DNA of 64,000 nt from Escherichia coli (GTDB lineage: Bacteria; Pseudomonadota; Gammaproteobacteria; Enterobacterales; Enterobacteriaceae), in the NCBI RefSeq assembly GCF_003334335.1, contig NZ_QOWQ01000001.1, one strand, 5' to 3'. Made by a program: the position numbers. Below are positions 9,001 through 12,000 of this stretch, one piece after another (the stretch's first letter is position 1; every line of letters begins with the position of its first letter).

Positions 9001-12000
9001 CGGAAAGTCGGAGCGATATCAATGGTGGCCTGCGGATTATTTTTACGTGCAACCGCCAGTTCAATGACCTGATAGTATTGCTGCCAGCCAGCATCGCGGC
9101 TGAACAAACCAGAAAGCGCGTCGTCGATCTCTTCGCGGGTAGGTGCGGCGATGCGATCGAGAAGATCGGTGATAATCAGAGCTGCAGCTGGATCGTTATA
9201 ACCAGACTGCACCACGCCAACATCAACCATTGCCTGTTGAACCAGACTTAACTCGTTCCATTTGCCCAGAGATTCTGCGGTACGAATATCTGCCTTCTCT
9301 AACTGTGCGGCAATAAGCAAGGACGCGTTAACGATATTACCGTTAAAGATTATTGCGTCAGAACCGGCAAACCCGAAACCATCATCACTGTTGCGTACAG
9401 AGTGCATTCCCATGTTAAACAACAGCTTTTGCACGTTTTCGCCTGGATTAACGGTTAGCTCCTGAGGCGCGCCATTTAAAGTAAAGTGGATGATCATACG
9501 GCTTCCTCCCCAGCCTGTTGGCAGTCGGCATACAGGTCGGCTACCAGAACTCCCGTGATATAGCGTTTATAGGCCACGCTGCCCCGCAAATCTTCCTGCG
9601 GGAAAATGGCGTTGGCGACAGCCTGTTCAAGTGCATTGCCTTCCAGATTTTGTTTTTCGACATCATGCAGACGCAGTGCTTTACTGGCGACGCCATCCAG
9701 CGCAATTCGCATACCGTCGTGGTCTGTCATTGCAACGGCTGCCGTCACGACGGTTAAACCTGCCTGAGAACGGCTAATTTTGCGGGTCGCACAGGTGCGA
9801 TACGGATCTTTAATGATAATTTCGGTTAGCAGGCGATCGCATGGGCAGGCCAGGTAGTCCTCGATTGACAGCGTTTCGCCGTTGCCAAAAACCAGTTCAG
9901 CATCCAGTGCCAACAGGACGGGAAGCAGCACCGACTCTTCCTGGCGGGCGGCGATTTCACCACCAATGGTCGACTGATTACGAACATGGCGTGAGTAAAC
10001 AAAACCGAGGGCTTCACGCAGCGCTGCAGGAATAAATCGCGCATCACGCAGTGGCTGCAAGCGAGACATTGCGCCAATCCGCAGTGCACCGTTATCCCAG
10101 TCAACCCAGTCCAGTTCCAGATCCTGTAAGGAAATGGCAATCTTTTTATCGGTACGGGTTGGTGTAGCATTGAGTTTGCTGCCCCCGGCGAACCAGACGG
10201 CTTCATCCTGGTAGCGGCGCTTCAGTTCCAGCGCCTGTTCGACAGAGTCGGGCCTGAAAAATTGTTCAATCATCTTCTTTCCTTATTTAACCCTCTTCCC
10301 TGCGGGAAGAGGGCATCTGTCATTTATGCCAGCGCATCCATCCGACGCCACATACTGGCAGCGGCTTTTCTGGCTTGTGCATAAATGGAATCGCAATCGA
10401 AGTTAAACTGACGGTCTTCATAGACCATCACACCATTGACCATCACGCTGTGAACGCTGCCTGAGCCCATACCGAAAGCGATATGCCCGGCGATATTGTC
10501 TGCCAGCAGCGGCGTCGGCGAGTTGTAATCGCAAATGGTTAAATCAGCTTTGTAACCGGCTTCCAGAAGCCCAAATTTCGCGCCAAAGTTGCGGCTCATC
10601 AGTTCGTTACCGTTAGTCAGGGCTTTGGCAAAACTGTCAGGCCACAGCGGACCACCCGCATCGCGATGTTTAAAGAAGGCAAATTTCATCTCTTCAAACA
10701 TGTCCGAACCAATGCCGTCCGTTCCCAACGCCAGATTGCGGATGTCGCTAAGGTGATGGTTGTAGCCGACATGGTTGTTCATGTTTGAACGGGCGTTATG
10801 CACCAGGAACGCATCGCGCTGATTGAGTAGGGTGATGTCATCTTTCGACAAGTACAGCCCATGAGCGACCAGCGTTTTGCTGTCGATGAGATCGAATTGC
10901 GCCAGTCGTGCCAGCAGGTCTTTGCCGTACCAGTGGTGACTGTAGGAAACGTCGTAAAGGTCTTCCGCAGCGTGAATATGCAAACCACGGCCTGTGGCTT
11001 TCACGGCTTCACGCAGCATCTCCAGACCGGCATCCGGCACGGTAAACGGCGCGTGAGCACCGATATGTGCTTCCACCAGATACGGCTCGCTTGTCGCTTT
11101 CTTCGCCTCATCAATCAAACGGGCGAAACGGATGTTTTCTTCTACACCTTCCTGCAACTCTTTGATGCCGTTGTTACGGTCAGTAGTTTCAAAACAGGTC
11201 ATCGCGCGCAGGCCAACTTTTAAAAATGCGTCGCGCAATGTGGAGAGCGACCCGCCGATATACGCCGGAGAGGCATGGTGATCGATAACCGATGTACATC
11301 CGCTCTTAATCGCTTCCAGGGAACAAATCAGTCCGCTGTAATAGAGCGACTCTTCATCAAGGGCGCGATCGAGCCGCCACCAGAGATTTTTCAGCGTTGA
11401 GATGAAATCCGGGCAAGGGGCGATGTTTGCCATAATTCCGCGGGAAAGCCCCGAGTAAAAATGGTTGTGCGAGCAGACAATCCCTGGCATCACAATCCGG
11501 CCATGCATCTCTTTGAAGCTGGCGTCGGGGTAGCGTTGCGTCAGGGCATCGCCGATAGCGACAATCACATCGTTTTCGATGGCGATATCAACGCCTTCCT
11601 GCACTTTTGCCGGGTGTAGCTGTACCGCAGTGACATTCTTCAGAATCAACATGATTACACCTCCACGCGGCCCAGCAGATAATGATGATGCTGGTGGACA
11701 TGGCTGATGATGCGGCACATATCGTTCAGCTCCGGTGGTACGTTGTTAAACTGACCTTTGCTGTCGATGTTTAACACCCAGCTTTGGTTATTCAGACGTA
11801 CTCGTACCCGGCAATCTTCCACAAGGAAGCCTGGGTTGCTGCTGTTATCAAAGTCTTGCGCCAGGCTGAAGACGGTGATTTTGTCTTTGTACGGTTTACC
11901 GTTCCACGGACAGAACTGAGCGCAGTTGCCGCATTCGTTACAGTAAGCGTCGAGGTGCAGCGTCTGGAAACGGTTCTGGAAGCCTGGGACCGCAATGGAG

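What the first reader, a model, noticed from the sequence alone, without database searches (positions are those of the whole stretch)
9018..9497. XdhD carries an Fe-S-subunit-like N-terminal domain in which every cluster-ligating cysteine is replaced
The first roughly 160 residues of XdhD align in motif order with the XdhC 2x[2Fe-2S] subunit encoded in the same window, but each Cys motif is replaced. [11 protein letters not shown] corresponds to [22 protein letters not shown] to QSGYNDPA, and CRCTGY to SRDAGW; the first Cys of XdhD appears only near residue 190. The fused domain therefore cannot bind [2Fe-2S] clusters in the normal way. This implies an unusual electron path for this hydroxylase, perhaps through YgfM (FAD) and YgfK/YgfT/YgfS (Fe-S), or a purely structural role for the vestigial domain.
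Basis: seen in the sequence. Interest (0 to 1): 0.55.

Follow-up and report, generated by a model that had tools for sequence, protein, structure and literature searches.

The report
XdhD's iron-sulfur domain lacks cysteines
The E. coli urate-reducing molybdenum enzyme XdhD keeps the fold of the usual two-cluster iron-sulfur "electron wire" but has replaced all eight cluster-binding cysteines, a strictly conserved and repeatedly evolved state that leaves open how electrons reach its molybdenum site.

Summary
Window 6627-9497 (minus strand) is E. coli xdhD. Residues 1-165 are a clear homologue of the 2x[2Fe-2S] subunit: BLASTP to XdhC gives 4e-22, the AF2 model matches NdhS at TM 0.80-0.86, and the full-length model matches D. 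gigas MOP at TM 0.84-0.89. All eight ligand cysteines are replaced (D38, A44, D47, S59; S98, N101, S133, D135), and the first Cys is residue 190.

The loss is derived. Relatives about 50% identical keep all eight Cys, and the YgfM-type FAD gene sits upstream in both classes.

The domain is remodelled, not decaying. The former cluster loops are as conserved as real cluster loops. The same Asp/Asp and Ser/Asn substitutions arose independently in a Chloroflexi clade, and a Krumholzibacteria clade lost only the FAD-proximal site. No compensating cysteines exist.

XdhD-YgfM was recently shown to reduce urate to 2,8-dioxopurine with NADH. Neither that paper nor any other I could search mentions the missing ligands, and NCBI still names the protein "Mo/Fe-S-binding".

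XdhD is therefore probably the first xanthine-oxidase-family enzyme without the Fe-S relay. The electron route is unresolved. My best guess is direct long-range FAD-to-pterin transfer across the remodelled module.

The parts
6627..9497 (-). xdhD CDS (956 aa): cluster-free Fe-S-like module fused to the a/b hammerhead and the Moco-binding domains
   Evidence: NCBIfam TIGR03313 score 2122.8 against a cutoff of 1101.9. AF2 model pLDDT 94.1, pTM 0.93.
9003..9497 (-). Residues 1-165: homologue of the 2x[2Fe-2S] small subunit (ferredoxin-like half plus Fer2_2 four-helix half) with all eight Cys ligands replaced
   Evidence: AF2 model of residues 1-172 has pLDDT 89. Foldseek to 3hrd_D gives TM 0.80/0.86.
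9354..9395 (-). Former site II loop (residues 35-48, RNSDDGFGFAGSDA). The ex-ligands are D38, A44 and D47; the fourth, S59, lies at 9319-9321.
   Evidence: S37, D38, F43, S46 and D47 are 96-100% conserved in the Cys-less class and differ from the Cys-full class.
9186..9215 (-). Former site I loop a (residues 95-104, VVQSGYNDPA). The ex-ligands are S98 and N101.
9081..9110 (-). Former site I loop b (residues 130-139, GLFSRDAGWQ). The ex-ligands are S133 and D135. This loop faces the pterin in canonical enzymes.
   Evidence: The canonical position is inferred from superposition on MOP.
8604..8939 (-). a/b hammerhead domain (residues 187-298)
   Evidence: Pfam PF01315, 6e-31
6819..8435 (-). Molybdopterin-cofactor-binding domains (residues 355-893). 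The invariant E917 lies just downstream, at 6747-6749.
   Evidence: Pfam PF02738 at 3.8e-72 and PF20256 at 6.4e-68. E917 is invariant in 76 family members.
9494..10273 (-). ygfM, the FAD-binding subunit (259 aa). Its stop codon overlaps the xdhD start codon (ATGA).
   Evidence: (TIGR03312). A ygfM-like gene lies directly upstream in virtually every family member. The FAD glycine motifs are kept.
26845..27324 (-). xdhC, the genuine 2x[2Fe-2S] subunit of the canonical XdhABC. It serves as the comparator and has all eight Cys.
27321..30507 (-). xdhB (FAD subunit) and xdhA (Mo subunit) of the canonical xanthine dehydrogenase
10324..14753 (-). ssnA and ygfK, the next enzymes of the reductive urate pathway, in the same operon as ygfM-xdhD
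   Evidence: Functions are from PMC12507026 and bioRxiv 10.1101/2025.04.24.650524.
15075..18199 (.). mocA, yqeC and yqeB: MCD synthesis genes and putative selenium/Moco maturation factors
   Evidence: Context is from PMC2276186.

Best explanation
XdhD is the molybdenum subunit of the NADH-dependent urate 6-dehydroxylase XdhD-YgfM. Its N-terminal 165 residues descend from the fused 2x[2Fe-2S] module of an ancestral YgfM/XdhD-type enzyme. That module lost both clusters and was remodelled into a cluster-free, tightly conserved domain.

Shown here:
- The fold and its position on the Moco domain are canonical.
- All eight Cys ligands are replaced, and no substitute cysteines exist.
- The loss is derived.
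- The replacements are invariant across phyla and recur independently.
- The FAD subunit is always retained with intact FAD motifs.

Inferred: the module now works as the obligatory structural bridge. It holds the pterin end of the cofactor on one face (loop SRD135xGY) and docks YgfM on the other. Asp, Ser and Asn side chains (perhaps with a hard, redox-inert cation) fill the former cluster cavities.

Electron route, the least certain step: I commit to NADH reducing the YgfM flavin, and the flavin reducing the molybdopterin/Mo centre directly across the packed ex-cluster loops in one long tunnelling step of roughly 20 Å or more. That would give a slow enzyme, adequate for a low-flux pathway.

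I put about 0.95 on 'no [2Fe-2S] clusters' and about 0.4 on this complete mechanism.
For: Homology and fold. The full-length model superposes on the fused FeS-Mo enzyme MOP (1sij) at TM 0.84/0.89 over about 990 columns, and on bovine XDH at TMq 0.80.

Ligand loss: fixed in 107 orthologues at >=75% identity; 53 Cys-less against 23 Cys-full among 80 species genomes.

Derived state: the Cys-full lineages are basal. In the reduced NJ tree the Cys-less clade is monophyletic at bootstrap 71.

No substitute ligands: only C619 is invariant, and it is invariant in both classes. The YgfM cysteines are not conserved.

Remodelled, not decaying:
- N-domain divergence relative to the Moco part is 1.22 in the Cys-less class against 1.25 in the Cys-full class.
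- Ex-cluster loops have a top-residue frequency of 0.82-0.87, against 0.59 for the rest of the domain.
- The class-specific invariant residues lie almost entirely in the former sites.

Convergence: independent losses in a Chloroflexi clade (both sites) and a Krumholzibacteria clade (site II only). The Moco-part tree and the N-domain tree are congruent.

FAD subunit retained. Natural YgfM-XdhD fusions exist.

Published work: XdhD co-purifies with a roughly 30 kDa protein and forms 2,8-dioxopurine from urate plus NADH (PMC12507026). An AF3 complex has ipTM 0.94 (PMC12990295).
Against: - No physiological single-step electron transfer over 20 Å or more is established. From my own knowledge (Page, Moser, Dutton 1999), natural chains keep hops at 14 Å or less.
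- The published assay is an end-point LC-MS measurement with 10 uM enzyme and no rate. The 30 kDa partner was only 'putatively' YgfM.
- Several positions that are invariant in FAD subunits partnered with Cys-full enzymes (N96, D172, G193, R230) are relaxed in partners of Cys-less enzymes. That could mean the flavin-to-wire interface is no longer used at all.
- Strict conservation and convergent choice of Asp/Asn (two-nucleotide changes from Cys) suggest ligand binding rather than mere packing.
- I could not obtain coordinates, so the FAD-pterin distance in XdhD-YgfM was not measured here.
Confidence: 0.4

Rival explanations
1. Mo-site ping-pong, like a transhydroxylase. The Mo centre is reduced by a second substrate (for example xanthine, hypoxanthine or another hydride donor) in the same active site and then dehydroxylates urate. 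No internal wire is needed. YgfM-FAD would only prime or re-activate the Mo centre slowly.
For: - The Fe-S wire was dispensable at least three times in this family.
- Cys-less xdhD is often in one operon with a complete canonical hydroxylase xdhA'-xdhC'-xdhB' (21/36 against 0/15). Xanthine oxidation and urate reduction are therefore co-encoded and redox-complementary.
- The C. sporogenes analogue catalyses the reaction in both directions.
- Constraint is relaxed at several YgfM positions.
Against: - The published assay needed only urate and NADH.
- An E. coli xdhA mutant did not consume xanthine, while an xdhD mutant did and accumulated urate.
- FAD motifs stay intact in every Cys-less lineage.
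- The operon association may simply reflect a shared pathway, and it is not corrected for phylogeny.
Confidence: 0.12
2. The remodelled Asp/Ser/Asn(/Gln/Glu) sites bind a non-cysteinyl metal or other cofactor. Either it is redox-active and replaces the clusters as a relay, or it is a structural hard cation.
For: - D38, D47, S98 and N101 are invariant.
- Oxygen/nitrogen-donor residues were selected convergently at the ex-ligand positions. The Chloroflexi clade has four donors per site: D, S/T, D, Q and S, N, D, E.
- The loops are as conserved as real cluster loops.
- Cys->Asp and Cys->Asn each need two nucleotide changes.
Against: - Ligand sets without His or Cys are typical of Mg/Ca, which are redox-inert.
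- Positions 44, 59 and 133 vary within the XdhD clade.
- The cavity of a [2Fe-2S] cluster is too small for a flavin or quinone (inference).
- No experimental metal analysis exists.
Confidence: 0.12
3. The module is only a scaffold, and a separate Fe-S protein delivers electrons to the Mo domain in vivo. Candidates are YgfS/YgfT or AegA, YgfK, or the XdhC-type subunit encoded next to many Cys-less xdhD genes.
For: - Fe-S proteins are encoded in the same window (ygfS, ygfT, ygfK).
- Formate-dependent urate use needs aegA/ygfT (cited).
- A separate XdhC-like gene is enriched next to Cys-less xdhD.
Against: - The fused module occupies the only known docking place next to the pterin.
- YgfK is a self-contained NAD(P)H:2,8-dioxopurine reductase.
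- The neighbouring XdhC' comes with its own Mo and FAD subunits.
- ygfS/ygfT are not conserved next to xdhD outside the enterobacteria.
- Two-subunit activity with NADH has been reported.
Confidence: 0.1
4. Nothing unusual is present. The clusters are still bound, either through misaligned or remote ligands, or the N-terminus is unrelated to the Fe-S subunit.
For: NCBI and TIGRFAM name the family 'Mo/Fe-S-binding subunit'.
Against: - Four independent alignments agree.
- Residues 1-189 contain no Cys.
- No set of conserved Cys exists in the class.
- Fold identity is confirmed.
Confidence: 0.02

Closest known systems
Cys-containing members of the same family (TIGR03313-like YgfM/XdhD pairs from Spirochaetota, Planctomycetota, Terriglobia, Elusimicrobia; e.g. 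L073, L058, L037)
   Same: About 50% identity, the same length (about 956 aa), and the same gene order (FAD subunit gene overlapping the fused FeS-Mo gene). They share the neighbours ygfK, ssnA, ygeY and ygeW.
   Different: They keep all eight Cys ligands and lack the adjacent second hydroxylase operon.
Desulfovibrio gigas aldehyde oxidoreductase MOP (PDB 1sij/1vlb)
   Same: A single chain with an N-terminal 2x[2Fe-2S]-fold module fused to the Mo domain. It is the best structural match to the XdhD model (TM 0.84/0.89).
   Different: MOP binds both clusters and has no FAD subunit. XdhD has a FAD subunit but no cluster ligands.
Eubacterium barkeri nicotinate dehydrogenase small subunit NdhS (PDB 3hrd_D), from a selenium-dependent Mo hydroxylase
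   Same: It is the closest solved sequence and structure relative of the XdhD N-domain (1.3e-17, 32% identity, TM 0.80/0.86). Both enzymes belong to the selenium-linked group.
   Different: NdhS is a separate subunit with all eight Cys and two clusters.
Clostridium sporogenes XdhAC (2,8-dioxopurine dehydrogenase)
   Same: It catalyses the same reaction, urate <-> 2,8-dioxopurine, and is a fused FeS-Moco protein.
   Different: It is described as having Fe-S-binding domains and has no FAD subunit. It does not use NAD(P)H and works with methyl viologen. The C. difficile counterpart of XdhD is only about 25% identical to E. coli XdhD.
E. coli XdhABC and R. capsulatus XDH (canonical FAD - FeS II - FeS I - Moco wire)
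   Same: The same three modules. Published modelling places XdhD-YgfM like 1JRO.
   Different: In XdhD-YgfM both relay clusters between the flavin and the Moco are missing.
[quoted passage not shown] 2007, PMC1949818)
   Same: A ferredoxin-type beta-grasp that lost its cysteines but kept the cluster-binding inserts.
   Different: Those domains do not lie in the middle of an electron-transfer chain between two redox cofactors.

Membership tests
Xanthine oxidase/dehydrogenase family of molybdenum hydroxylases | a/b hammerhead plus two Moco-binding domains | tested here: met
   PF01315 at 6e-31, PF02738 at 3.8e-72 and PF20256 at 6.4e-68. Structural match to HcrA, CoxL and XDH.
Xanthine oxidase/dehydrogenase family of molybdenum hydroxylases | Conserved catalytic glutamate near the C-terminus and the GGGFG Moco motif | tested here: met
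   E917 (in SISEIG) is invariant in 76 members. G442-G446 is invariant or nearly so. Equating E917 with bovine E1261 rests on my own knowledge.
Xanthine oxidase/dehydrogenase family of molybdenum hydroxylases | Two [2Fe-2S] clusters ligated by eight cysteines between the Moco and the flavin | tested here: not met
   All eight positions are substituted. No Cys occurs before residue 190, and no compensating conserved Cys exists.
Xanthine oxidase/dehydrogenase family of molybdenum hydroxylases | FAD-binding subunit or domain | tested here: met
   ygfM hits PF00941 at 9.5e-20 and TIGR03312. The AGGS and TIGGE motifs are kept. Co-purification is published.
Xanthine oxidase/dehydrogenase family of molybdenum hydroxylases | Bound Mo-MCD cofactor with a terminal S/Se ligand | not testable with these tools
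   mocA, yqeB and yqeC are adjacent. Cofactor content needs biochemistry.
NCBIfam TIGR03313 (Se_sel_red_Mo, 'Mo/Fe-S-binding subunit') | Whole-protein score above the curated cutoff | tested here: met
   2122.8 bits against a cutoff of 1101.9. The 'Fe-S-binding' part of the name does not hold for this protein.
2x[2Fe-2S] small subunit (CoxS/XdhC/NdhS; Pfam Fer2 + Fer2_2) | Two-domain fold: beta-grasp ferredoxin half plus four-helix half | tested here: met
   AF2 pLDDT 89 to 94. TM 0.75-0.87 to NdhS, CoxS, HcrC and the glyceraldehyde oxidoreductase subunit.
2x[2Fe-2S] small subunit (CoxS/XdhC/NdhS; Pfam Fer2 + Fer2_2) | Pfam model matches | tested here: inconclusive
   Fer2_2 matches at 6.3e-12. 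Fer2 (PF00111) gives no hit, whereas Cys-containing relatives carry it.
2x[2Fe-2S] small subunit (CoxS/XdhC/NdhS; Pfam Fer2 + Fer2_2) | Cys-x4-Cys-x2-Cys...Cys and Cys-x2-Cys...Cys-x-Cys ligand motifs | tested here: not met
   The residues are D38, A44, D47, S59 and S98, N101, S133, D135.
Selenium-dependent molybdenum hydroxylases (Haft and Self 2008) | Genomic linkage to yqeB (TIGR03309), yqeC and the MCD transferase | tested here: met
   yqeB, yqeC and mocA lie 5-9 kb from xdhD in the window. Table in PMC2276186.
Selenium-dependent molybdenum hydroxylases (Haft and Self 2008) | Catalytically required labile selenium | not testable with these tools
   Needs biochemistry.

The most novel reading that the evidence does not exclude
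XdhD-YgfM would be the first xanthine-oxidase-family enzyme that turns over without any iron-sulfur relay. It would use a genuinely new way of coupling flavin and molybdenum. Possible routes are a single very long tunnelling step through a purpose-built, strictly conserved Asp/Ser/Asn/Phe-filled module, a non-cysteinyl metal relay in the remodelled sites, or a wire-free ping-pong at the Mo site. On this reading evolution has found the solution at least three times independently, with the same residue substitutions.
Probability: 0.3. Interest if true: 0.85.

Novelty: new variant of a known kind. Interest (0 to 1): 0.65.

Why it matters
Every characterised member of the xanthine oxidase family passes electrons between molybdenum and its partner through two [2Fe-2S] clusters. 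That wire is a textbook example of biological electron-transfer design.

XdhD-YgfM is now known to be the first enzyme of the gut-bacterial reductive urate pathway, and it is being engineered into probiotics against hyperuricaemia and gout. If it works with no clusters, three things follow:
- The accepted mechanism for the family has an exception that can be tested with a purified E. coli enzyme.
- Heterologous expression and engineering of the pathway need Moco, selenium and FAD but not Fe-S assembly for this step.
- The database name 'Mo/Fe-S-binding subunit', propagated to thousands of genomes, is wrong for about two thirds of the family members sampled here.

The natural series makes a ready-made experimental set for asking what the clusters contribute. 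It consists of a full-Cys form, a form with only the FAD-proximal site lost, and a form with both sites lost.

Tried and rejected
- Substitute ligands in XdhD. Only C619 is invariant, and it is invariant in both classes. C398 is enriched in the Cys-less class (81%) but stands alone. Rejected.
- Substitute ligands in YgfM (C143, C145, C161, C251). These are not conserved outside the gammaproteobacteria. Rejected.
- Spread of a Cys-less N-domain by domain swapping. The N-domain tree (with ligand and class-specific columns removed) is congruent with the Moco-part tree. Rejected in favour of independent losses.
- L070 as a further independent loss. The contig fuses an epimerase N-terminus to xdhD residue ~89, so it is a chimera or a deletion. 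Set aside.
- Monophyly of the Cys-less XdhD clade in the 83-taxon NJ tree. It was recovered in only 30 of 100 bootstraps, with one Cys-full group nested. In the 68-taxon tree it is monophyletic at 71. A single origin is therefore likely, supported also by the shared S37/D38/F43/S46/D47/S98/N101 signature, but it is not proven. No maximum-likelihood software was available.
- Decay of the domain. Relative rates are equal in both classes. Rejected.
- Loss of FAD binding in YgfM. Both glycine motifs are kept in all classes. Rejected.
- Prior description in the literature. Searches for XdhD with 2Fe-2S/2Fe2S, for ygfN/ygfM, for dioxopurine/yanthine, and for phrases about missing cysteines found nothing. 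Xi et al. 2000 and the Iobbi-Nivol and Leimkühler review are not held in the library, so an earlier remark there cannot be excluded.
- Measuring the FAD-pterin distance. The structure tool returns no coordinates. A permuted domain order prevents a sequential superposition of a YgfM-XdhD fusion on bovine XDH. Not attempted.
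Full report
**What is there.** The window is an E. coli chromosome segment. The ORF at 6627-9497 (minus strand, 956 aa) is xdhD. It is 100% identical to annotated xdhD genes and present in 5178 of 5426 complete E. coli genomes. It is preceded by ygfM (9494-10273), whose stop codon overlaps the xdhD start codon (ATGA). Further upstream lie ssnA and ygfK. The canonical xdhABC operon lies 17 kb away at 26845-30507. Pfam finds a Fer2_2 domain (residues 73-145, 6.3e-12), the a/b hammerhead and both Moco-binding domains, but no Fer2 hit. 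NCBIfam places the protein in TIGR03313, 'molybdopterin-dependent oxidoreductase Mo/Fe-S-binding subunit', at 2122.8 bits against a cutoff of 1101.9. YgfM falls in TIGR03312.

**Check of the observation.** XdhD residues 1-139 align with the XdhC of the same window at E = 4e-22 (33% identity). They align with the nicotinate dehydrogenase Fe-S subunit NdhS (3hrd_D) at 1.3e-17, and with the XdhC, PucE, HcrC and glyceraldehyde-dehydrogenase gamma models at 1e-12 to 4e-19. In every alignment the eight ligand cysteines are substituted. The ferredoxin-like site has D38, A44, D47 and S59. From my own knowledge this is 'FeS II', which faces the flavin in canonical enzymes. The four-helix site has S98, N101, S133 and D135, and this is 'FeS I', which faces the pterin. 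The first cysteine of the protein is residue 190.

**Fold and position.**
- An AlphaFold2 model of residues 1-172, built from 77 aligned sequences, has pLDDT 89. It matches NdhS, the glyceraldehyde oxidoreductase Fe-S subunit, CoxS and HcrC at TM 0.75-0.87.
- The full-length model (pLDDT 94.1, pTM 0.93) keeps pLDDT 91-97 across the N-domain, including the ex-cluster loops.
- It superposes as one body on the fused FeS-Mo enzyme MOP of D. gigas (TM 0.84/0.89, about 990 columns) and on bovine XDH (TMq 0.80).

The module therefore sits where the cluster-bearing module sits in canonical enzymes. The PDB copy holds no solved structure of XdhD.

**Is the loss general?**
- Among 107 full-length orthologues at 75% identity or more (Enterobacterales, Aeromonas, Photobacterium, Paludibacterium), the substitutions are fixed.
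- A scan of one genome per species returned 80 loci. Fifty-three are Cys-less with the pattern D-[ACTSV]-D-[SGN] / S-N-x-[DAS]. They come from Gammaproteobacteria, Rhodocyclaceae, Rhodospirillaceae, Bacteroidetes, many Spirochaetota, and Clostridiales, Lachnospiraceae and Oscillospiraceae.
- Twenty-three keep all eight cysteines. They come from other Spirochaetota, Planctomycetota, Terriglobia, Riflebacteria, Dependentiae and Elusimicrobia.
- Both classes are about 956 aa and about 50% identical to each other.
- Both carry a ygfM-like FAD gene directly upstream, usually overlapping.
- Both sit among ygfK, ssnA, ygeY and ygeW homologues.

**Polarity of the change.** Neighbour-joining trees of the Moco part put the Cys-full lineages at the base. 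The Cys-less clade is monophyletic with bootstrap 71 in a 68-taxon tree, and sister to one Cys-full group. In the 83-taxon tree this node is unresolved, at 30 of 100 bootstraps. The shared signature S37, D38, F43, S46, D47, S98, N101 (96-100% in the class, absent from the other class) argues for one origin within this clade.

**Not a decaying relic.**
- With ligand columns removed, the N-domain diverges 1.22 times as fast as the Moco part in the Cys-less class and 1.25 times in the Cys-full class.
- In the Cys-less class the three former cluster loops have a mean top-residue frequency of 0.82-0.87, against 0.59 for the rest of the domain. The Cys-full class shows 0.84-0.90 against 0.60.
- Nearly all class-specific invariant positions of the whole 956-residue protein lie in these loops.
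- No alternative cysteine set exists. Only C619 is invariant, and it is invariant in both classes. The four cysteines of YgfM are not conserved.

**Recurrence.** The sister family is about 39% identical to XdhD and is found with P0126. It contains a Krumholzibacteria-type clade that lost only site II (D-G-D-x but CCCC; 16 sequence clusters). It also contains a Chloroflexi clade that lost both sites (D-[ST]-D-Q / S-N-D-E; 16 clusters), nested with 99-100% bootstrap among Cys-full relatives. A tree of the N-domain alone, without the ligand and class-specific columns, is congruent with the Moco tree. These are therefore independent events, not a swapped domain. The same residues were chosen each time: Asp at ligands 1 and 3 of site II, and Ser and Asn at ligands 1 and 2 of site I. 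Cys to Asp and Cys to Asn each need two nucleotide changes. The site-II-only form suggests the order of loss, with the flavin-proximal cluster going first. In both extra lineages a FAD-subunit gene is still present.

**The flavin subunit.** YgfM-like proteins keep both FAD pyrophosphate motifs (AGG[TS] and T-x-GG-[NE]) in every class. Natural in-frame YgfM-XdhD fusions exist in L046, L068 and L078. Four positions that are invariant in partners of Cys-full enzymes (N96, D172, G193, R230) are variable in partners of Cys-less enzymes. Y238 is invariant only in the partners of Cys-less enzymes.

**An unexpected association.** In 21 of 36 Cys-less loci with enough upstream sequence, a complete canonical hydroxylase precedes ygfM-xdhD on the same strand, often with overlapping stop and start codons. 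It consists of a Mo subunit of about 715 aa, a 160-aa 2x[2Fe-2S] subunit with all its cysteines, and a 288-aa FAD subunit. L048 is an example: ygfK-ssnA-xdhA'-xdhC'-xdhB'-ygfM-xdhD. None of 15 Cys-full loci has this arrangement. Fisher's exact test gives p = 8e-5, but it is not corrected for phylogeny. In E. coli the equivalent is xdhABC, 17 kb away.

**What is known from the literature.**
- Li et al. 2025 (PMC12507026) purified tagged XdhD from E. coli and saw a co-purifying protein of about 30 kDa, 'putatively YgfM'. They detected 2,8-dioxopurine ('yanthine') by LC-MS after incubating 10 uM enzyme with 1 mM urate and 1 mM NADH. No rate is reported. The text never mentions 2Fe-2S clusters or cysteines.
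- A commentary (PMC12990295) reports an AF3 complex with ipTM 0.94.
- The C. sporogenes analogue XdhAC has Fe-S domains and no FAD subunit. It works with methyl viologen and does not use NAD(P)H.
- YgfK is a separate NAD(P)H:2,8-dioxopurine reductase.
- AegA and YgfT were proposed to pass electrons from formate dehydrogenase to NADP+ or to urate.
- Older reviews treat XdhD as an uncharacterised XDH homologue. Haft and Self listed YgfK, YgfM and YgfN as the Fe-S, FAD and Mo subunits of a putative selenate reductase.
- I found no statement anywhere in the searchable library that XdhD lacks the cluster ligands. Xi et al. 2000 could not be read.
- Cys-less ferredoxin-fold domains are known in other proteins (PMC1949818).

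**Mechanism: shown and inferred.**
- Shown: XdhD cannot ligate [2Fe-2S] clusters with cysteines. The module is retained in its canonical place under strong constraint. The flavin subunit is retained.
- From my own knowledge, not verified here: in bovine XDH the spacings are about 14.7 Å (Mo to FeS I), 12.4 Å (FeS I to FeS II) and 7.8 Å (FeS II to FAD). Natural electron-transfer chains keep single hops at 14 Å or less. Without both clusters, the flavin and the pterin are separated by roughly 20 Å or more of protein.
- My own estimate: with the Moser-Dutton expression, a 20 Å hop could still give of the order of 1-30 s-1, and a 25 Å hop about 0.01-0.1 s-1. Either would produce detectable product in the published end-point assay. 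Only the former would support growth-relevant flux.

I therefore commit, at about 0.4, to the following route. NADH reduces the YgfM flavin, which reduces the pterin/Mo centre directly through the densely packed, conserved ex-cluster loops. In this picture the module serves as a structural bridge and tunnelling medium. The rivals are a wire-free ping-pong at the Mo site with YgfM as activator (0.12), a non-cysteinyl metal or cofactor in the remodelled sites (0.12), an external Fe-S donor (0.10), and 'clusters still present' (0.02). The rest of the probability lies with routes I have not thought of. The convergent Asp/Asn choice is also compatible with a simple structural reason: carboxylate and amide groups could accept the backbone N-H bonds that formerly pointed at the cluster sulfurs. 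That is an inference.

**Comparison and novelty.** XdhD works like, and by its Moco domains is a member of, the xanthine oxidase family. It meets the family's Mo-domain and FAD-subunit criteria and fails the two-cluster criterion. It belongs to TIGR03313 by score, but the 'Fe-S-binding' part of the family name does not apply to it or to about two thirds of the members sampled. This is a new variant of a known kind. The enzyme and its reaction are known. The absence of the relay, its conservation and its convergent recurrence appear not to have been described.

**Verdict.** Interest is 0.65. The finding would surprise a molybdoenzyme specialist, and it can be tested directly by metal analysis and EPR on an enzyme that has already been purified.

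Noticed in passing
L048:5821-12880 (also L051, L053, L059, L060, L064, L065, L068, L071, L074, L077, L088, L023, L026, L035, L012): Cys-less ygfM-xdhD pairs are very often preceded in the same operon by a complete canonical hydroxylase xdhA'-xdhC'(2Fe-2S)-xdhB' with overlapping stop and start codons. This holds for 21/36 Cys-less loci against 0/15 Cys-full loci. The meaning is unknown; it could be a pathway link or a physical complex.
   Followed up: partly
P0126, P0271-P0285 (L003, L092); P0316, P0321, P0366 etc. (L091): A sister family has a clade that lost only the flavin-proximal cluster site (Krumholzibacteria) and a clade that lost both sites (Chloroflexi). Both use the same Asp/Asp and Ser/Asn replacements as XdhD. 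L092 sits next to a DHO_dh/Fer4 reductase and an amidohydrolase.
   Followed up: partly
window 9494-9497; L046, L068, L078; P0007: The ygfM stop and xdhD start overlap (ATGA). Natural in-frame YgfM-XdhD fusions of 1186-1230 aa occur in Oscillospiraceae, Spirochaetaceae and Clostridiales MAGs. P0007 (1215 aa, 43 Logan sequences) is an E. coli fusion created by a frameshift in the last ~20 codons of ygfM.
   Followed up: partly
record NZ_CP119441.1 (hit H1): E. coli O121 strain 201805972 carries an IS2 inside xdhD. The N-terminal fragment is annotated there as a '2Fe-2S iron-sulfur cluster-binding protein', although it has no cysteine. In addition, 248 of 5426 complete E. coli genomes have no xdhD match.
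   Followed up: no
window 9494-10273 (ygfM) and the partner genes in L011-L090: FAD subunits partnered with Cys-less XdhD are shorter (median 264 against 280 aa; about 230 aa in one Spirochaete/Clostridia group). They have lost constraint at N96, D172, G193 and R230, and Y238 is invariant only in this group.
   Followed up: partly
L070:1-600: The contig encodes an NAD-dependent epimerase N-terminus fused in frame to xdhD from about residue 89. It is an assembly chimera or a deletion remnant.
   Followed up: yes
window 9345-9347 and 9309-9311 (codons 51 and 63 of xdhD): The commonest E. coli XdhD allele in the protein collection (P0005, 8988 member sequences) has F51C and A63G relative to the window sequence. 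Neither is a ligand position.
   Followed up: no
L073:4963-9196: In Cys-full Spirochaete loci, the space upstream of ygfM is taken by two PLP enzymes (threonine-synthase-like and cysteine-synthase-like) and an 8-oxoguanine-deaminase-like amidohydrolase. The same deaminase-like gene precedes ygfM in many Cys-less loci.
   Followed up: no
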